Positions 34,411 to 44,133 of a stretch of 64,000 nt of DNA are shown piece by piece; position 1 is the first letter of the stretch; each line of letters begins with the position of its first letter. A model generated the notes under the pieces. That model did no database searches, was not told where the DNA came from, and saw only the letters and a list, made by a program, of their open reading frames with translations. Location of the stretch: the NCBI RefSeq assembly GCF_057098645.1, contig NZ_CM169472.1; one strand, given 5' to 3'. The position numbers and the translations under genes were made by a program.

Positions 34411-35918
34411 TGGCAATTCTTGATGATGTGATTGGCGTTTTTTCACCAGGATGGAAAGCGGCAAGGCTGCGTTCCCGTGCGGTGATCCAGGCTTATGAGG
34501 CCGTAAAAACGACACGGACACACAAAGCCCGGCGGGAAAACCGAACTGCCGACCAGTTAAGCCAGTACGGGGCCGTGTCGTTACGTGAGCAGGCCCGTTA
34601 CCTTGATAACAACCACGATCTGGTTATTGGTGTATTTGACAAGCTGGAAGAACGGGTGGTGGGGAAAAACGGGATTATTGTCGAGCCACATCCGGTATTA
34701 CGCAATGGGGCCATTGCCCGTGATCTGGCAGCGGAGATACGCACCCGATGGAGTGAATGGTCTGTCAGTCCGGAAGTCACCGGGCAGTTTACCCGTCCGA
34801 TGCTGGAACGTCTGATGCTGCGTACCTGGCTGCGCGATGGTGAGGTGTTTGCCCAGATGGTTTCCGGGCGCATAAACAGCCTGACGCCTTCTGCCGGTGT
34901 TCATTTCTGGCTGGAGGCGCTCGAGCCGGACTTTATTCCCATGACCAGTGATGAGAGCAACAGGCTGAATCAGGGCGTGTTTGTTGATGACTGGGGGCGT
35001 CCCGAAAAATATCTGGTGTATAAAAGCCGTCCCGTATCCGGGCGGCAGATGGAAACCAAAGAAGTGGATGCAGAGCGAATGCTGCATCTTAAATTTGTTC
35101 GCCGTCTGCACCAGATGCGCGGGACGTCTTTGTTGTCCGGTGTGCTGATCCGCCTCAGTGCCCTGAAAGAGTATGAAGATTCTGAGCTGACTGCAGCAAG
35201 GATCGCCGCTGCTCTGGGGATGTACATCCGGAAAGGCGACGGGCAGAGCTATGAACCGGATGGTAATGGCAGCAAGGAGAATGAACGCGAGCTTACCATT
35301 CAGCCAGGCATTATTTACGACGATCTGAAACCCGGCGAAGAAATCGGAATGGTGAAGTCGGATCGTCCCAATCCTAACCTTGAAACTTTTCGTAATGGTC
35401 AGTTGCGTGCCGTGGCGGCGGGCAGTCGTCTGAGTTTTTCCAGTACGGCACGCAACTATAACGGCACTTACAGCGCCCAGCGTCAGGAACTGGTTGAGTC
35501 TACTGATGGCTACCTGATCCTGCAGGACTGGTTTATTGGTGCCGTCACCCGCCCGATGTATCGTGCCTGGCTGAAACAGGCTGTGGCATCCGGTGTTATC
35601 AGGTTACCCCGCGATCTTGACCGTTCTTCACTGTATACCGCGGTGTATTCCGGACCAGTGATGCCGTGGATTGACCCTGTTAAGGAGGCTGAGGCCTGGA
35701 AAATCCAGATTCGTGGTGGAGCGGCGACAGAATCAGACTGGGTACGTGCTGGTGGTCGTAATCCGGATGATGTCAAACGTCGGCGCAAGGCCGAAATTGA
35801 TGAAAACCGCAAGCTGGATCTGGTATTTGATACCGATCCGGCCAGTGATAAAGGAGGCAGCAGTGCCGCAACGAAACGACAGGAGCCGCAGCACACCGAC
35901 GACCAGTCCGAAGAATAA
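34410..35918 (+). CDS. Portal protein
   Basis: ~500-aa ORF between W and the protease-capsid gene; start MAILDDVIGVF... Confidence 0.8.
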   Translation: MAILDDVIGVFSPGWKAARLRSRAVIQAYEAVKTTRTHKARRENRTADQLSQYGAVSLREQARYLDNNHDLVIGVFDKLEERVVGKNGIIVEPHPVLRNGAIARDLAAEIRTRWSEWSVSPEVTGQFTRPMLERLMLRTWLRDGEVFAQMVSGRINSLTPSAGVHFWLEALEPDFIPMTSDESNRLNQGVFVDDWGRPEKYLVYKSRPVSGRQMETKEVDAERMLHLKFVRRLHQMRGTSLLSGVLIRLSALKEYEDSELTAARIAAALGMYIRKGDGQSYEPDGNGSKENERELTIQPGIIYDDLKPGEEIGMVKSDRPNPNLETFRNGQLRAVAAGSRLSFSSTARNYNGTYSAQRQELVESTDGYLILQDWFIGAVTRPMYRAWLKQAVASGVIRLPRDLDRSSLYTAVYSGPVMPWIDPVKEAEAWKIQIRGGAATESDWVRAGGRNPDDVKRRRKAEIDENRKLDLVFDTDPASDKGGSSAATKRQEPQHTDDQSEE

Positions 35919-35931
35919 TTCCTGGTTCAGG

Positions 35932-37890
35932 ATGCAGGCTGGTCACCAGAGTGACGCGGATATTTATATTTATGACGAGATTGGTTTCTGGGGTGTTACA
36001 GCGAAGCAGTTTATCAGTGATCTGAATGCACTGGGCGATATCACCCACATTAATCTCCATATTAATTCACCGGGTGGCGATGTCTTTGAAGGCATCGCCA
36101 TTTTTAATGCGCTGAAAACACATGGTGCGTCCATTACCGTTTATGTCGACGGTGTGGCGGCGTCAATGGCGTCGGTCATTGCGATGGTGGGAAACCCGGT
36201 CATTATGCCGGAAAACACCTTCATGATGATTCATAAACCATTTGGCTTTACGGGCGGTGATGCGGAGGACATGCGCACCTATGCCGACCTGCTCGATAAG
36301 GTTGAGGCGGTTCTGTTACCCGCTTATGCACAGAAAACCGGGAAAACCACCGATGAAATTGCTGCCATGCTGGCGGATGAGACCTGGATGTCCGGTGCCG
36401 AATGTCTGGCACATGGATTTGCTGATCAGGTAACGCCAGCCGTTAAGGCAATGGCATGTATTCAGTCAAAACGTACAGAGGAATTTAAAAAGATGCCGGA
36501 ATCCATTCGAAACATGATTACTCCGCCACGCAACAGTGCTCCACGCGTACAGGATGATGAACCTGCAGCCTCCCGGACGCCAGTGCAGGCAGCAGCACCC
36601 GTGGTGGATGAAAACAGTATCCGTGCGCAGGTACTGGCAGAGCAAAAAGCGCGTGTAAACGGTATTAATGATCTGTTTGCCATGTTTGGCGGGCGTTATC
36701 AGACGCTGCAGGCTCAGTGTCTTGCCGATCCTGAATGTTCGCTGGAGCAGGCCCGCGAAAAGCTGTTGAACGAGATGGGGCGCGAGTCCACGCCATCCAA
36801 TAAAAATACCCCGGCTCATATTTATGCCGGTAACGGTAATTTTGTGGGGGACGGGATCCGCCAGGCGCTGATGGCGCGTGCCGGATTTGAAAAAACCGAA
36901 CGTGATAATGTCTACAACGGGATGACCCTGCGTGAATATGCCCGTATGTCACTGACTGAACGGGGTATTGGGGTTTCCAGTTATAACCCGATGCAGATGG
37001 TCGGTGCGGCGTTCACACACAGTACGTCTGACTTCGGTAATATTCTGCTGGATGTTGCGAACAAAGCCATTCTGCAGGGCTGGGAAGATGCCCCTGAAAC
37101 CTATGAACAGTGGACGCGGAAAGGTCAGTTGTCTGATTTTAAAATTGCCCATCGTGTGGGTATGGGGGGCTTCAGTGCTCTGCGTCAGGTGCGTGAAGGG
37201 GCGGAATATAAATACGTCACCACCGGAGATAAACAGGCCACTATTGCACTGGCGACCTATGGCGAGCTGTTCAGTATCACCCGTCAGGCCATTATCAATG
37301 ATGATCTGAATATGCTGACCGATGTCCCGATGAAACTGGGCCGTGCGGCGAAATCCACTATTGCCGATCTGGTTTATGCCATTCTGACGTCTAACCCGAA
37401 AATCTCCACAGATAATGTAAGTCTGTTCGATAAAGCGAAACATGCAAACGTACTGGAGAGCGCTGCAATGGACGTGGCATCGCTGGATAAAGCCCGCCAG
37501 TTGATGCGCGTTCAGAAAGAGGGGGAGCGTCATCTGAATATTCGTCCTGCGTTCGTACTGGTACCGACGGCGATGGAGTCTGTTGCTAACCAGGTCATTC
37601 GCTCCTCAAGTGTCAAGGGGGCTGACATTAACGCCGGTATTATTAACCCGGTGAAAGATTTTGCGACCGTTATTGCAGAGCCTCGTCTTGATGATAACAG
37701 CCAGACCACTTTCTACCTGGCTGCGTCCAAAGGCTCCGATACGATTGAAGTGGCTTATCTCAACGGTGTGGATACGCCATATATTGATCAGATGGAGGGC
37801 TTCAGTGTGGATGGCGTGACAACGAAAGTGCGTATTGACGCCGGTGTCGCGCCAGTTGATCACCGCGGTCTGGTGAAATGTACGGCGTAA
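35932..37890 (+). CDS. Prohead protease (ClpP/S49-like) fused to the major capsid protein
   Basis: N-terminal ClpP-like region (INSPGGDVFEGIAIFNALK ... MASVIAM), central coiled-coil scaffold-like segment, C-terminal ~300-aa capsid-like domain; ATG at 35932. Confidence 0.75.
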   Translation: MQAGHQSDADIYIYDEIGFWGVTAKQFISDLNALGDITHINLHINSPGGDVFEGIAIFNALKTHGASITVYVDGVAASMASVIAMVGNPVIMPENTFMMIHKPFGFTGGDAEDMRTYADLLDKVEAVLLPAYAQKTGKTTDEIAAMLADETWMSGAECLAHGFADQVTPAVKAMACIQSKRTEEFKKMPESIRNMITPPRNSAPRVQDDEPAASRTPVQAAAPVVDENSIRAQVLAEQKARVNGINDLFAMFGGRYQTLQAQCLADPECSLEQAREKLLNEMGRESTPSNKNTPAHIYAGNGNFVGDGIRQALMARAGFEKTERDNVYNGMTLREYARMSLTERGIGVSSYNPMQMVGAAFTHSTSDFGNILLDVANKAILQGWEDAPETYEQWTRKGQLSDFKIAHRVGMGGFSALRQVREGAEYKYVTTGDKQATIALATYGELFSITRQAIINDDLNMLTDVPMKLGRAAKSTIADLVYAILTSNPKISTDNVSLFDKAKHANVLESAAMDVASLDKARQLMRVQKEGERHLNIRPAFVLVPTAMESVANQVIRSSSVKGADINAGIINPVKDFATVIAEPRLDDNSQTTFYLAASKGSDTIEVAYLNGVDTPYIDQMEGFSVDGVTTKVRIDAGVAPVDHRGLVKCTA

Positions 37891-39556: not shown

Positions 39557-39567
39557 AGGAGGTGGCA

Positions 39568-40311
39568 ATGACCACACCAAATCCACTGGCAAAAACGAAA
39601 GGTGCGGGAACGACGTTCTGGATGTACACCGGCAAGGGCGATGCGTTTGCGAACCCTTTATCGGACACTGACTGGCTGCGTCTTGCGATGGTGAAGGATC
39701 TGCAACCTGGCGAAATGACCGCTGATGCAGAAGATGACACTTATCTCGATGATGAAGATGCAGACTGGAAAACGACAACCCAGGGGCAGAAATCCGTCGG
39801 TGATACTTCGGCGACGCTGGCCTGGCGTCCGGGTGACAGCGGGCAGAAAAAACTGGTTCAGTTGTTCGACTCCGGTGAAGTCTGCGCGTTTCGTATCAAA
39901 TATCCCAACGGCACTGTTGATGTTTTCCGTGGCTGGCTGAGCTCACTGGGTAAAACCATTGCCTCAAAAGACGTGATGACCCGCACAGTGAAAATCAGCG
40001 GTGTGGGGCGTCCGTATCTGGCAGAGGAAGGCACTGAAACAGTGAGCGTTACCGGGCTGACGGTGGCACCGGCATCTGCCAGTGTAAAAGTGGGAGCAAC
40101 CACCACGCTGACCTTTACAGTAAAACCTGACGGAGCCAGTGACAAAGCGATCAGTGTGCATTCGACAGATCCACAGACTGCCACGGTGACCCTGAACGGG
40201 CTTGTGGCCACGGTGAAAGGCGTGAAGCAGGGCAGTGTCAGCATTGTGGGCATGACTTCTGACGGCGATTTTGTGGCAGTGGCTGCGGTGGCTGTCAGCG
40301 CCGCAGGTTAA
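39568..40311 (+). CDS. Major tail protein V (lambda gpV-like, C-terminal Ig-like domain)
   Basis: ...KGAGTTFWMYTGKGDAFANPLSD ... YLDDEDADWKTTTQGQKSVGDTS ... matches lambda V; AAGGAGG RBS before the ATG at 39568. Confidence 0.9.
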   Translation: MTTPNPLAKTKGAGTTFWMYTGKGDAFANPLSDTDWLRLAMVKDLQPGEMTADAEDDTYLDDEDADWKTTTQGQKSVGDTSATLAWRPGDSGQKKLVQLFDSGEVCAFRIKYPNGTVDVFRGWLSSLGKTIASKDVMTRTVKISGVGRPYLAEEGTETVSVTGLTVAPASASVKVGATTTLTFTVKPDGASDKAISVHSTDPQTATVTLNGLVATVKGVKQGSVSIVGMTSDGDFVAVAAVAVSAAG

Positions 40312-40331
40312 CAGGACGATACTCATCATTT

Positions 40332-40356
40332 GCCCCGGTTATCCGGGGCTTTTTTG
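40332..40356 (+). terminator. Intrinsic terminator after V
   Basis: gccccggttatccggggc followed by tttttt. Confidence 0.7.
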
Positions 40357-40371
40357 CAGGTGGAGAACATG

Positions 40372-40758
40372 ATGTTTCTGAAACAGGGCACGTTTAATTA
40401 TGAAAAGCAGTCCGTGGTGCTCAGTGAGCTGTCCGGGCTGCAGAGAATTGAATATCTGGCGTTTGTTCAGCAGCGAACGGCAAAGTTTGATGCCGAAGAG
40501 GGAGAACTGCCGGAGGCTGAACGACAGATTGCTTTTCTGCGGATGGGGATGGATATCAATGCCTGGCTGGTTTCCCGCTCACTGTGGAATGCGGAACAGT
40601 CTCAGGATGTTGAGACGCTTTGCGCATCCGTTATTACAACATGGTCGTATGATGCCCTGGGAGCGGGGGCGGAGATGGTTCTGTCGCTGAGCGGTATGGG
40701 AGCCATTGAGAATGCCGGGGATTTGGAGCATGAGGTGCTGACGCCGGAAAAGTCCTGA
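40372..40758 (+). CDS. Tail assembly chaperone G (lambda gpG-like)
   Basis: MFLKQGTFNYEKQSVVLSELSGLQRIEYLAF... parallels lambda G. Confidence 0.85.
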   Translation: MFLKQGTFNYEKQSVVLSELSGLQRIEYLAFVQQRTAKFDAEEGELPEAERQIAFLRMGMDINAWLVSRSLWNAEQSQDVETLCASVITTWSYDALGAGAEMVLSLSGMGAIENAGDLEHEVLTPEKS

Positions 40759-41096
40759 CGCGGGAAATGCAGTTTGTCATGCGGCTTGCCCGGGAGTTCC
40801 GGCGGGCAGACTGGCGGCGGATGCTGTCGGAAATGTCGGCCACTGAGCTTGGTGAGTGGGGCGATTATTTCCGGATGCAGAGCTTCAGTGATGTCTGGAT
40901 GGATGCGCAGTTTGCCTCGCTGAAGGCATTGATCGTGAGAATGGTGTCCGGCAGCAGTGATGCTGCGGTGGCTGATTTCAGCCTTTTACCGGAAGAGAAC
41001 GGGATACCGGAGCGAACGGACGAAGAACTGATGCATCTTGGAGAAGGTATTTCCGGAGGTGTGCGTTATGGACCAGATAGCCAACCTGGTCATTGA
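40745..41096 (+). CDS. gpT-like segment, expected to be made only as a G-T fusion by programmed -1 frameshift near the end of G
   Basis: Open -1 frame continues from before the G stop (40756..40758) to 41096; candidate slip region ccggaaaag at 40744..40752; exact slip site not resolved. Confidence 0.5.
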
Positions 41097-44000
41097 TTTG
41101 GGGATTGATGCGGCAGAGTTTAAAAATGAAATTCCCCGTATCAAAAACCTTCTGAATGGTGCCGCCAGCGATGCAGAACGGTCTTCTGCCCGTATGCAGC
41201 GTTTTATGGAGCGTCAGACTCAGGCCGCCCGGCAGACAACGCAGGCGGCTTCTTCGGCTGCAACAGCCGCCTCCGTCCATGCGCAGACGGTGGAGAAGAA
41301 CGCACAGGCTCATGAACGCATGGCCCGCGAGGTGGAGAAAACCCGCCAGCGCATGGAGGCGCTGAGCCAGAAAATGCGCGATGAACAGGCGCAGGCCATG
41401 GCTCTGGCGGAGGCTCAGGATAAAGCGGCTGCTGCGTTTTATCGTCAGATTGACAGTGTGAAACAGGCCAGTGCGGGGCTGCAGGAATTACAGCGTATTC
41501 AGCAGCAGATCCGACAGGCCAGAAACAGTGGCGGGATTGGTCAGCAGGATTATCTGGCGCTGATTTCTGAGGTTACGGCGAAAACCCGTGTTCTTACACA
41601 GGCTGAGGAAGAGGCTACCCGACAGAAAGTGGCGTTTATCCGTCAGCTTAAAGAGCAGGCAACCCGCCAGAATCTTTCTTCTTCTGAGTTGCTTCGTGCT
41701 AAGGCTGCCCAGCTGGGGGTAAGCAGTGCTGCAGAAGTGTATATCCGCAAAATGGAGCAGGCAGGAAAAGCCACGCATTCGCTGGGTCTGAAAAGTGCAG
41801 CGGCCCGCCAGGAGATAGGCGTTCTGATAGGTGAACTGGCTCGCGGCAATTTAGGTGCGCTGAGGGGATCCGGGATAACGCTGGCTAACCGTGCCGGATG
41901 GATAGACACACTGATGTCACCGAAAGGCATGATGCTGGGCGGGGTTATTGGCGGTATTGCCGCGGCCGTCTATGGTCTGGGTAAAGCCTGGTATGATGGT
42001 CAGAAGGAGGGGGAAGAATTTAACCGCCAGTTGTCGCTGACGGGGCATTATGCCGGAGTCACTGCCGGGCAGCTGTGGACGCTCAGTCGTGCTATTTCCG
42101 GGAATGGTATTACGCAACATGCTGCAGCCGGTGCGCTGGCTCAGGTGGTGGGGAGTGGTGCATTTCGTGGAAACGATATCGGTATGGTGGCGAGAGCTGC
42201 CGCACAGATGGAGCGATCGGTTGGCCAGTCGGTCAGCGATACCATAAATCAGTTTAAGCGGCTGAAGGATGATCCTGTAAATGCCGCGAAGGCTCTGGAC
42301 AATGAGCTGCATTTTCTTACTGCCACTCAGCTTGAGCAGATACGCGTCCTTGGGGAACAGGGGCGGTCCAGTGATGCGGCACGGATAGCCATGTCTGCAC
42401 TGGCAGAGGAAACCGGTCGGCGTACTGCGGATATTGATAATAACCTCAATGCGCTGGGCAGTACGCTGAAGTATCTGTCTGATTTATGGAGTCGTTTCTG
42501 GGATGCGGCCATGAATATTGGTCGTGAAGACTCGCTGGATGAACAGATTTCCGCTTTACAGGAGAAAGTGTCGCAGGCGAAAAGACTCCCCTGGACGGCA
42601 TCATCTTCTCAGGTTGAGTACGATCAGCAGCGTCTTAACGAGCTTCAGGAGAAAAAACGCCAGAAGGATTTGCAGGATGCAAAAGAGCAGGCAGAGCGGA
42701 ATTATCAGGAGCAACAGAAACGCCGTAATGCTGAAAATGCTGCACTGAACCGGATGAATGAAACGGAAGCAGCACGACATCAGCGTGAAATTGCGCGTAT
42801 TAATGCCATGCAGTACGCCGATCAGGCTGTCAGGGATGCGGCGATACAACGTGAAAATGAACGTTACGAGAAAGCCCTGGCATCCGGTAAGAAAAAAACA
42901 CGCGAACCCCGTAATGATGAGGCCACCCGGTTATTGCTGCAGTACAGTCAGCAACAGGCACAGGTGGAAGGACAGATTGCTGCTGCCAGACAGTCAGCAG
43001 GCATTGCCACGGAAAGGATGACAGAAGCGCATAAACAGCTTCTGGCTCTGCAGCAGCGCATCAGCGACCTGGACGGGAAAAAACTGACGGCAGATGAAAA
43101 GAGTGTGCTGGCCCGTAAAGATGAACTGATTCAGGCACTGACGCTGCTGGATGTAAAACAGCAGGAGCTTCAGAAACAGACGGCACTCAACGAGCTGAAG
43201 AAAAAAACAATTCAGCTGACCAGTCAACTGGCTGAAGAAGAGCGCGCTCAGCGTCAGCAACATGACCTGGATATCGCCACGGTGGGTATGGGTGATCAGC
43301 AGCGGCAGCGATATCAGGTACAACTGAGTCTTCGCCAGAAATACCAGCAACAGCTGGAACAGTTGAGGCGGGATAGTGAGCAGAAAGGAACATATAACAC
43401 GGATGACTACAGAAAGGCCGAGCAGGCGCTGACGGAGAGCCTGAACCGACAACTGAATGAGAATCGCCGTTACTGGCAACAGCTTGAAGTTGTGCAGGGT
43501 AACTGGAAAAACGGAGTCCTGCGTGCATTTCAGGATTTTACCGTGGATGCAGATAATACGGCAGGAACAGCAGAACAGGTGTTCTCGTCAGCCTTCAGCA
43601 ACATGGGAAATGGCCTGGCAACTTTTGTCACTACCGGCAAACTCAATTTCAAATCCTTCACCTCTTCTGTGCTGTCAGATATGGCGAAAATCCTGGCGCA
43701 GGCAACCATGATGAAATCGATAAAAGGGATTGGCAGTGTACTGGGATTTGATCTCAGCAGCCTTTCCCTGAATGCCAATGGGGGGATTTATCAGTCTGCT
43801 GATTTGAGTCGTTACAGTGGCACGGTGGTTAACCGTCCGACGTTTTTTGCTTTTGCAAAAGGCGCGGGTGTGATGGGGGAAGCGGGACCTGAAGCCATTC
43901 TGCCACTGCGTCGTGGTGCTGACGGTAAGCTGGGGGTTGTGGCGGATATTGGTGGTTCAGGTATGGCGATGTTTGCCCCGCAGTACAACATCGAGATCAA

Positions 44001-44133
44001 TAACGATGGCACGAACGGGCAGATAGGTCCGGCTGCCCTGAAGGTGGTTTATGACCTTGGGAAAAAAGCGGCAGCGGACTTTATGCAACAGCAGGCCCGT
44101 GATGGTGGTCGGTTAAGTGGAGCATATCGGTAA
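41068..44133 (+). CDS. Tail tape measure protein (gpH-like)
   Basis: ~1020-aa coiled-coil-rich protein between G-T and M; GGAGG RBS before the ATG at 41068. Confidence 0.88.
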   Translation: MDQIANLVIDLGIDAAEFKNEIPRIKNLLNGAASDAERSSARMQRFMERQTQAARQTTQAASSAATAASVHAQTVEKNAQAHERMAREVEKTRQRMEALSQKMRDEQAQAMALAEAQDKAAAAFYRQIDSVKQASAGLQELQRIQQQIRQARNSGGIGQQDYLALISEVTAKTRVLTQAEEEATRQKVAFIRQLKEQATRQNLSSSELLRAKAAQLGVSSAAEVYIRKMEQAGKATHSLGLKSAAARQEIGVLIGELARGNLGALRGSGITLANRAGWIDTLMSPKGMMLGGVIGGIAAAVYGLGKAWYDGQKEGEEFNRQLSLTGHYAGVTAGQLWTLSRAISGNGITQHAAAGALAQVVGSGAFRGNDIGMVARAAAQMERSVGQSVSDTINQFKRLKDDPVNAAKALDNELHFLTATQLEQIRVLGEQGRSSDAARIAMSALAEETGRRTADIDNNLNALGSTLKYLSDLWSRFWDAAMNIGREDSLDEQISALQEKVSQAKRLPWTASSSQVEYDQQRLNELQEKKRQKDLQDAKEQAERNYQEQQKRRNAENAALNRMNETEAARHQREIARINAMQYADQAVRDAAIQRENERYEKALASGKKKTREPRNDEATRLLLQYSQQQAQVEGQIAAARQSAGIATERMTEAHKQLLALQQRISDLDGKKLTADEKSVLARKDELIQALTLLDVKQQELQKQTALNELKKKTIQLTSQLAEEERAQRQQHDLDIATVGMGDQQRQRYQVQLSLRQKYQQQLEQLRRDSEQKGTYNTDDYRKAEQALTESLNRQLNENRRYWQQLEVVQGNWKNGVLRAFQDFTVDADNTAGTAEQVFSSAFSNMGNGLATFVTTGKLNFKSFTSSVLSDMAKILAQATMMKSIKGIGSVLGFDLSSLSLNANGGIYQSADLSRYSGTVVNRPTFFAFAKGAGVMGEAGPEAILPLRRGADGKLGVVADIGGSGMAMFAPQYNIEINNDGTNGQIGPAALKVVYDLGKKAAADFMQQQARDGGRLSGAYR

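What the first reader, a model, noticed from the sequence alone, without database searches (positions are those of the whole stretch)
40744..40758. G-T programmed frameshift region with a non-canonical slip sequence
The -1 frame stays open across the G stop codon and continues as a gpT-like sequence, as required for the conserved G-T fusion, but the lambda heptamer GGGAAAG is absent. The nearest candidate is ccggaaaag (40744..40752).
Basis: partly seen in the sequence, partly recalled or inferred. Interest (0 to 1): 0.3.

Follow-up and report, generated by a model that had tools for sequence, protein, structure and literature searches.

The report
Phage tail G-T frameshift site
This is the ordinary programmed -1 ribosomal frameshift by which a lambda-like E. 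coli prophage makes a little fused G-T tail-assembly chaperone; its slip sequence, G GAA AAG, is already annotated in phage N15 and is shared by many relatives.

Summary
gpG (40372-40758) and a gpT domain in the -1 frame (open 40734-41096) overlap by only 22 nt. G has no X_XXY_YYZ heptamer. The only slip-capable site in the overlap is G GAA AAG (40746-40752).

It is not a novelty. GenBank AF064539 (phage N15) annotates exactly this heptamer, at the homologous Lys codon, as the -1 slippery sequence. HK225, mEp213 and Eeyore share it, and Gifsy-2 (annotated as a G+G' hybrid) carries the same ACGCCGGAAAAGTCCTGA block.

In over 100 related IMG/VR loci (G identity 57-100%) CCGGAAAAG is invariant while the flanks diverge. 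Across wider relatives the constant part is the A_AAR lysine tetramer; the P-site codon varies (GGA, GAA, GCA, AAA).

This G-T region occurs in 1847 of 5426 complete E. coli genomes, where G and T are annotated as separate genes.

Likely mechanism: tRNA-Lys re-pairs AAG to AAA, and tRNA-Glu re-pairs GAA to GGA with a middle G·U, giving a 241-aa fusion with junction ...LTPEK|VLTREMQF.

Published data rate this heptamer as weak, so a helper may exist. I found no downstream structure. A semi-conserved GAGG exactly 10 nt upstream (dnaX-like spacing) is a candidate, unproven.

Low interest.

The parts
39562..40311 (+). Major tail protein (gpV homologue with a C-terminal Big_2 domain), immediately upstream of G
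   Evidence: Pfam Phage_TTP_12 6.4e-67 and Big_2 2e-11; ORF list
40332..40355 (+). Terminator-like hairpin GCCCCGGTTATCCGGGGC followed by T6, between V and G. It is context, not part of the frameshift signal
   Evidence: Consensus scan; the same feature is annotated as a terminator in Ayreon, mEp460 and N15
40372..40758 (+). Gene G, tail assembly chaperone, 128 aa, zero frame. An alternative ATG lies at 40369
   Evidence: TIGR01674 190.8 bits; PF06894 1.8e-39; PGAP places the start at the position equivalent to 40372
40731..40733 (+). TGA in the -1 frame. It sets the 5' limit of the window in which a productive -1 shift can occur (40734-40755)
   Evidence: Frame translation
40732..40737 (+). 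Shine-Dalgarno-like GAGGTG. Its GAGG ends exactly 10 nt before the heptamer. Candidate 5' stimulator (inferred, not shown)
   Evidence: Duplex with the 16S 3' end is -9.3 kcal/mol, in the top 6-9% of windows. GAGG at the same 10-nt spacing recurs in most cdtI/Gifsy-like lineages. It is absent in the N15/phi80-like group and in lambda
40746..40752 (+). Slip heptamer G GAA AAG: P-site Glu codon at 40747-40749, A-site Lys codon at 40750-40752
   Evidence: Only candidate in the overlap; invariant in all relatives of this clade; identical heptamer annotated as the slippery sequence in N15
40756..40758 (+). G stop codon UGA, one codon after the slip Lys codon
40752..41096 (+). -1 frame segment (T domain) read after the shift: 114 codons plus the stop. 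The G-T fusion is 241 aa, with junction ...LTPEK|VLTREMQF...
   Evidence: TIGR01715 136.8 bits, with the model starting at residue 5 after the slip, upstream of the ATG used by annotators; phrog_32165 covers G and T in one profile; alignment A3
41068..44133 (+). Tape measure protein (gpH homologue). It overlaps the end of T
   Evidence: Pfam TMP_2 2.7e-49 and Tape_meas_lam_C 3.2e-22; PGAP start

Best explanation
This is the conserved lambda-type G/GT programmed -1 ribosomal frameshift of a lambdoid E. coli prophage of the Ayreon/phi458/mEp460/cdtI type. Most ribosomes translate G to the UGA at 40756 and release the 128-aa chaperone. A small fraction slips back one base on G GAA AAG (40746-40752). 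tRNA-Lys(mnm5s2UUU) moves from AAG to the cognate AAA. tRNA-Glu(mnm5s2UUC) moves from GAA to GGA, keeping positions 1 and 3 and forming a G·U at position 2. Alternatively only the Lys tRNA slips, on the A_AAG tetramer. Both routes give the same protein. Translation continues with GUC CUG ACG and produces a 241-aa G-T fusion with junction ...LTPEK|VLTREMQF.... By analogy with lambda, the G part would bind the tape-measure protein and the T part would recruit the major tail protein. Shown here: gene identities, frame geometry, the uniqueness of the site, and its conservation. Inferred: that the shift happens, its rate, the one-tRNA versus two-tRNA route, and any stimulatory role for the upstream GAGG.
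For: G and T are equivalog-level matches to lambda G and T (Pfam), and they sit between V and H. The -1 frame is open only from 40734, and G GAA AAG is the only slip-capable heptamer there. N15 GenBank AF064539 annotates the same heptamer at the homologous codon as 'slippery sequence for -1 translational frameshift'. Gifsy-2 carries ACGCCGGAAAAGTCCTGA and its T is annotated as part of a G+G' frameshift hybrid. CCGGAAAAG is invariant in the 62 loci and in the cdtI/Gifsy-like part of the 80 loci (the two sets overlap heavily), at G identities of 57-100%, while adjacent sequence diverges. The slip-site Lys is an invariant column, and the fusion aligns without a gap with lambda, N15, mEp213, an Stx phage and Gifsy-2. 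T-frame amino-acid conservation (x4-E-x2-F-x3-LAREF) begins directly after the slip. 13 of 41 unique T N-termini have no ATG, GTG or TTG before LAREF. Literature: A_AAG is the most shift-prone tetramer in E. coli (PMC4066793). Natural A_AAG sites exist with a non-slippery P codon (PMC5009743). GAA-to-GGA re-pairing through G:U has been noted at actinophage chaperone sites, and the same paper lists a 'twofour' motif class whose name fits GGAAAA; its definition sits in a supplementary figure I did not see (PMC10885494).
Against: There is no direct evidence of a fusion protein for this phage group. In a reconstituted E. coli system G GAA AAG gave mainly zero-frame product and was used as the 'less slippery' control (PMC6924986). 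A_AAG alone gave only about 0.15% shifting without a stimulator. I found no downstream stimulatory structure: z = -0.96, no covariation support, and no Rfam match. In this window T has an in-frame ATG at 40767, 8 nt after the G stop, and every database record annotates T as a separate gene.
Confidence: 0.85

Rival explanations
1. T is made as a separate 109-aa protein from ATG 40767 by termination-reinitiation after the G stop 8 nt upstream, as the database annotations imply, and no frameshift is needed.
For: An in-frame ATG lies at 40767 close to the G stop. PGAP, mEp460 and others annotate T from this ATG.
Against: That ATG is confined to the window's close clade. Gifsy-2, mEp213, Eeyore, the Stx phages and others have no start codon before the invariant LAREF segment (13 of 41 unique T N-termini). 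The T-frame residues between the slip and the ATG (VLTRE) are conserved with lambda and N15. The TIGR01715 model begins upstream of the Met. Only GGGA sits 2 nt before the ATG, which is poor SD spacing. From my own knowledge, in lambda T is found only as the GT fusion (Levin et al. 1993).
Confidence: 0.08
2. The site is a decayed lambda heptamer (GGGAAAG mutated to GGAAAAG) in a defective prophage, so GT is no longer made.
For: In vitro, G GAA AAG is poorly slippery. A few related loci carry broken T frames (L003, L029-L031).
Against: The same heptamer occurs in viable, plaque-forming phages: N15, HK225, mEp213, mEp460, Ayreon, phi458 and cdtI. It is invariant across lineages down to 57% G identity. 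The window's tail operon ORFs are intact.
Confidence: 0.03
3. The frame change arises by transcriptional slippage of RNA polymerase on the A4 run rather than by ribosomal slippage.
For: The site contains a short homopolymer, AAAA.
Against: From general knowledge, productive transcriptional slippage needs runs of about 7 or more A or T; this run has four. Relatives with GGGAAAG have only three A's at the same position and still use the site.
Confidence: 0.02

Closest known systems
Phage lambda G / GT frameshift (slip G GGA AAG; Levin, Hendrix and Casjens 1993; Xu, Hendrix and Duda 2004, 2013, 2014)
   Same: The genes are homologous (TIGR01674 and TIGR01715). The position between V and H is the same. 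The shift is -1 at the same invariant Lys codon. The T frame starts GK-V... right after the slip. No downstream structure is evident. The G:GT ratio is critical for tail assembly (PMC5009743).
   Different: The P-site codon is GAA (Glu) rather than GGA (Gly), so re-pairing to GGA has a middle-position G·U in place of a perfect match. The G stop is 1 codon after the Lys instead of 5. The overlap is 22 nt against 61 nt. An SD-like GAGG lies 10 nt upstream, which lambda lacks.
Phage N15 gp14/gp15 (GenBank AF064539), with HK225, mEp213 (phi80-like) and Eeyore
   Same: The heptamer G GAA AAG is identical and sits at the homologous codon. In N15 it is explicitly annotated as the -1 slippery sequence.
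   Different: G-T protein identity is only about 36%. The G stop is 5 codons downstream. There is no SD-like sequence upstream (duplex about -0.9 kcal/mol).
Salmonella phage Gifsy-2 STM1039 / STM1041.1n
   Same: The slip block ACGCCGGAAAAGTCCTGA is identical. GAGG lies 10 nt upstream. The stop is one codon after the Lys. T is annotated as part of a G+G' frameshift hybrid.
   Different: Protein identity is 54%. Gifsy-2 T has no in-frame start codon at all before LAREF.
E. coli dnaX frameshift signal
   Same: It is a -1 shift on a Lys AAG A-site codon read by tRNA-Lys(mnm5s2UUU). An SD-like element sits 10 nt upstream of the heptamer: AGGGAG plus 10 nt in the dnaX-mimic mRNA of PMC6924986, against GAGG plus 10 nt here.
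   Different: The dnaX heptamer is A AAA AAG and is fully slippery. dnaX depends on a downstream stem-loop, which is not found here. The dnaX shift yields a shorter product rather than a fusion.
A_AAG tetramer sites (IS1222 G_CGA_AAG, B. subtilis cdd A_CGA_AAG)
   Same: The A-site Lys slips on A_AAG while the P-site codon cannot re-pair perfectly (PMC5009743; PMC4066793).
   Different: Those cases are in other genes. IS1222 uses a strong downstream stimulator. Here the P-site tRNA can still form two Watson-Crick pairs plus one G·U.

Membership tests
Lambda-type G/GT tail assembly chaperone frameshift | Upstream ORF is a gpG-family chaperone | tested here: met
   TIGR01674 equivalog 190.8 bits (cutoff 74.45); PF06894 1.8e-39
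Lambda-type G/GT tail assembly chaperone frameshift | A gpT domain is encoded in the -1 frame and overlaps the 3' end of G | tested here: met
   TIGR01715 136.8 bits (cutoff 77.35); frame relation and 22-nt overlap
Lambda-type G/GT tail assembly chaperone frameshift | The gene pair lies between the major tail gene and the tape-measure gene | tested here: met
   V at 39562-40311 and H at 41068-44133
Lambda-type G/GT tail assembly chaperone frameshift | A slip site within the overlap is conserved among relatives | tested here: met
   G GAA AAG at 40746-40752 is invariant in its clade and homologous to the annotated N15 site
Lambda-type G/GT tail assembly chaperone frameshift | T has no conserved initiation signal of its own, and conservation starts at the slip | tested here: inconclusive
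   At family level the feature is met: 13 of 41 unique T N-termini lack any start codon before LAREF. The window itself has an ATG at 40767
Lambda-type G/GT tail assembly chaperone frameshift | The G-T fusion protein is made at a low percentage and is needed for tail assembly | not testable with these tools
   Needs expression, mass spectrometry and genetics
Canonical X_XXY_YYZ tandem-slippage heptamer | The first three bases are identical, so the P-site tRNA re-pairs with at most a wobble change | tested here: not met
   The heptamer is G GAA AAG (first three bases GGA). The P-site shift GAA to GGA changes the middle position; this was noted as unfavourable in PMC6924986
Canonical X_XXY_YYZ tandem-slippage heptamer | The A-site is a YYZ codon preceded by Y, allowing cognate re-pairing | tested here: met
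   A AAG, the best E. coli tetramer
dnaX-type signal (SD-like + heptamer + 3' hairpin) | An SD-like element lies 6-17 nt upstream | tested here: inconclusive
   GAGGTG at 40732-40737 with a 10-nt spacer, duplex -9.3 kcal/mol. It recurs in most cdtI/Gifsy-like lineages but not in L035, and it is absent from the N15 group. It also coincides with a conserved Glu codon
dnaX-type signal (SD-like + heptamer + 3' hairpin) | A conserved stimulatory structure lies 5-9 nt downstream | tested here: not met
   z = -0.96 against shuffles; covariation term +1.14, and the small 5-bp hairpin abutting the site is broken in Gifsy-2; nothing in Rfam

The most novel reading that the evidence does not exclude
G GAA AAG is intrinsically weak, so these phages may depend on helpers that lambda does not need. 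In the cdtI/Gifsy-like clade the helper would be the conserved GAGG exactly 10 nt upstream, acting as a dnaX-like anti-SD pairing stimulator. In addition, both slip tRNAs (Glu and Lys) carry mnm5s2U34. The G:GT ratio, and hence tail assembly, in this prophage family (about a third of complete E. coli genomes) would then be more sensitive than lambda to the host's tRNA-thiolation (Tus/MnmA) state.
Probability: 0.25. Interest if true: 0.35.

Novelty: already known. Interest (0 to 1): 0.15.

Why it matters
The practical value is annotation. In 1847 of 5426 complete E. coli genomes, and in every closely related phage record, G and T are annotated as two independent genes. The fusion product (241 aa, junction LTPEK|VLTREMQF) is missing from those records. 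For frameshifting biology it gives a small, testable contrast. Reconstituted-system data rate this heptamer as poor, yet it is the conserved natural site in several lambdoid lineages. Measuring its in vivo efficiency, with and without the upstream GAGG and in tRNA-thiolation mutants, would show how weak sites are tuned to the low G:GT ratio that tail assembly needs.

Tried and rejected
1. Downstream stimulatory structure. Folding 40753-40852 gave z = -0.96. An alignment fold of 8 diverged relatives gave no covariation support, and the 5-bp hairpin abutting the site has no spacer and is broken in Gifsy-2. Rejected.
2. Rfam scan of 40200-41300 at E <= 10 returned only chance hits.
3. GGGAAAT at 40762-40768 as a displaced lambda-like heptamer: it lies after the G stop, so it is unusable.
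5. GAGGTG as a ribosome-binding site for internal T initiation: there is no start codon in the T frame within reach, and ATG 40767 is 29 nt away.
6. Enrichment of the bare heptamer in the window: none, 13 copies against 9.1 expected.
7. Literature. Xu et al. 2004 is not held in the library. Bock et al. 2019 did not test second-position P-site mismatches. The 2025 bioRxiv 10-mer screen does not mention this motif.
8. Nearby stop as a 'shifty stop'. This works for relatives where UAG or UAA directly follows the Lys codon. In the window the stop is one codon further on, so the arrangement does not apply.

Full report
**What is at the coordinates**

- An ORF runs from ATG 40372 (alternative ATG at 40369) and ends ACG CCG GAA AAG TCC TGA, with the stop at 40756-40758.
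- The -1 frame has a TGA at 40731-40733 and is then open from 40734 to 41096.
- The two frames therefore overlap productively for only 22 nt (40734-40755).
- G contains no in-frame X_XXY_YYZ heptamer.
- The only in-frame heptamer with an A-site triplet inside the overlap is G GAA AAG at 40746-40752.
- A GGGAAAT at 40762-40768 lies beyond the stop and is irrelevant.

**Gene identities**

- The upstream ORF is a gpG chaperone: Pfam Phage_TAC_2 at 1.8e-39, and NCBIfam equivalog TIGR01674 at 190.8 bits against a cutoff of 74.45.
- The -1 frame segment is gpT: Phage_tail_T at 5e-15, and TIGR01715 at 136.8 bits against 77.35.
- The TIGR01715 model starts at the fifth residue after the slip, which is upstream of the ATG that annotators use.
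- One PHROG profile (phrog_32165) covers G and T in a single 290-position family.
- The pair sits between a lambda-type major tail protein with a Big_2 domain (39562-40311) and a tape-measure protein (41068-44133).

**Provenance**

- The 771-bp region is 97-99.5% identical to phages Ayreon, phi458, mEp460, cdtI and others.
- It is 100% identical to a prophage in E. coli YPE10, and it occurs in 1847 of 5426 complete E. coli genomes.
- None of these records annotates a frameshift. PGAP calls 'phage tail assembly chaperone G' and 'phage tail assembly protein T' as separate genes, with T starting at the ATG equivalent to 40767.

**Is the slip site more than chance?**

- The bare heptamer is not rare in the window: 13 copies against 9.1 expected.
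- Its placement is unlikely. An in-frame A_AAG within the 22-nt overlap has a chance probability of about 3.7%, and GGAAAAG about 0.08%.
- Conservation is the stronger argument. In 62 IMG/VR loci found with the fusion protein the block CCGGAAAAGTCCTGA is invariant, apart from one TCA synonymous variant (L006). G identity there runs from 57 to 100%, and the upstream part of the overlap diverges freely in sequence and length, from 22 to 40 nt.

**Comparison with annotated phages**

- N15, HK225, mEp213 (phi80-like), Eeyore and Gifsy-2 all have G GAA AAG at the homologous codon.
- Lambda, Turner, PhiR12_1 and an Stx2a phage have G GGA AAG.
- Stx2d and Stx1a phages have A AAA AAG.
- In GenBank AF064539 (N15) a misc_feature at exactly this heptamer reads 'slippery sequence for -1 translational frameshift'.
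- In Gifsy-2 the T ORF is annotated as part of a 'G+G' frameshift hybrid protein'.
- So the slip sequence departs from the textbook heptamer rule, but it is already on record.

**The fusion and the start codon**

An alignment of eight predicted GT fusions is gap-free across the junction, and the slip-site Lys is an invariant column. T-frame conservation (x4-E-x2-F-x3-LAREF..DWR) starts directly after the slip. The ATG at 40767 is confined to the window's close relatives. 13 of 41 unique T N-termini have no ATG, GTG or TTG before LAREF. This argues against independent initiation as the general way to make T.

**Wider survey**

A profile scan returned more distant relatives. At the homologous Lys codon they use:
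- G GAA AAG (most);
- G GCA AAA followed directly by UAG;
- G GAA AAA followed by UAG;
- A GAA AAG followed by UAA.

The constant element is the A_AAR lysine tetramer. The P-site codon varies between GGA, GAA, GCA and AAA, and its first base is usually able to keep pairing after the shift. [quoted passage not shown] In the window's clade the stop is one codon further on.

**Mechanism**

The best-supported reading is a -1 shift with Glu (GAA) in the P site and Lys (AAG) in the A site.
- tRNA-Lys re-pairs to the cognate AAA.
- tRNA-Glu re-pairs to GGA, with Watson-Crick pairs at positions 1 and 3 and a G·U at position 2.
- A slip of the Lys tRNA alone on A_AAG would give the same product.
- The result is a 241-aa fusion with junction ...LTPEK|VLTREMQF....

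Supporting literature:
- A_AAG is the most shift-prone tetramer in E. coli (PMC4066793).
- Natural A_AAG sites with imperfect P-site codons exist in IS1222 and in B. subtilis cdd (PMC5009743).
- GAA-to-GGA re-pairing through G:U has been noted for actinophage chaperone sites. That paper also lists a 'twofour' motif class whose name fits GGAAAA, although its definition is in a supplementary figure I did not see (PMC10885494).

Contrary literature:
- In a reconstituted E. coli system G GAA AAG gave mainly zero-frame product and served as the 'less slippery' control (PMC6924986).
- The A_AAG tetramer without a stimulator gave about 0.15% shifting.

Lambda needs only about a 30:1 G:GT ratio, so a weak site may be enough. 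The rate at this site remains unknown.

**Stimulators**

- No downstream structure is supported: z = -0.96 against shuffles, no covariation support across eight diverged relatives, and nothing in Rfam.
- Upstream, GAGGTG (40732-40737) places GAGG exactly 10 nt before the heptamer. That is the same spacer length as AGGGAG in the dnaX-mimic mRNA.
- Its duplex with the 16S 3' end is -9.3 kcal/mol, in the top 6-9% of windows.
- GAGG or GGAGG at that same spacing recurs in most cdtI/Gifsy-like lineages, reaching -15.4 kcal/mol in one subclade.
- The Glu codon there is GAG in about 8 lineages and GAA in about 2, against a 40% GAG background.
- The element is weak in L035, absent from the N15/phi80-like group that uses the same heptamer, and it coincides with a family-conserved Glu.
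- I therefore treat it as a candidate stimulator only.

**tRNA modification**

Both slip tRNAs here, Glu and Lys, are 2-thiouridine (s2U34) tRNAs. Hypomodification of these tRNAs raises lambda GT frameshifting and impairs infection (PMC3296357). That suggests, but does not show, greater sensitivity at this site.

**Verdict**

The feature is an ordinary, already recorded variant of the conserved G-T frameshift. Its practical value is to correct annotation. Its scientific interest is low, apart from the small open question of how a weak heptamer delivers the required GT level.

Noticed in passing
window 40332-40355: Terminator-like hairpin GCCCCGGTTATCCGGGGC followed by T6, between the major tail gene V and G. 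The same element is annotated as a terminator in Ayreon, mEp460 and N15. It may lower G/T/H expression relative to V.
   Followed up: partly
L003:1878-2010; L029-L031 about 2010 (IMG/VR relatives): One-base indels inside T break the T frame: an extra G in a CGGGC run in L003, and a missing T in GAGTGGGG in L029-L031. These are either sequencing errors or decaying prophages.
   Followed up: no
L034 / L095 (IMGVR_UViG_2551306526_000001): The T region and slip block are intact, but the sequence upstream of ...GATGAGCATGAGG is unrelated to G. This looks like a truncated or recombinant G gene.
   Followed up: no
L132-L135, L139-L140, L143-L145, L148-L149, L152 (IMG/VR relatives): More distant G-T homologues place the G stop codon directly after the slip Lys codon (G GCA AAA UAG, G GAA AAA UAG, A GAA AAG UAA). 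This is a tetramer-plus-stop layout with even poorer P-site re-pairing than in the window.
   Followed up: partly
window 35671-37890: The long head ORF upstream of the tail genes corresponds to the CDS that Ayreon annotates as 'putative ClpP protease-like protein/scaffold protein'. I ran no domain search on it here.
   Followed up: no
window 41068-41096: The tape-measure gene start (ATG 41068) overlaps the last 29 nt of the T frame, so G-T-H are tightly packed in three overlapping reading frames.
   Followed up: no
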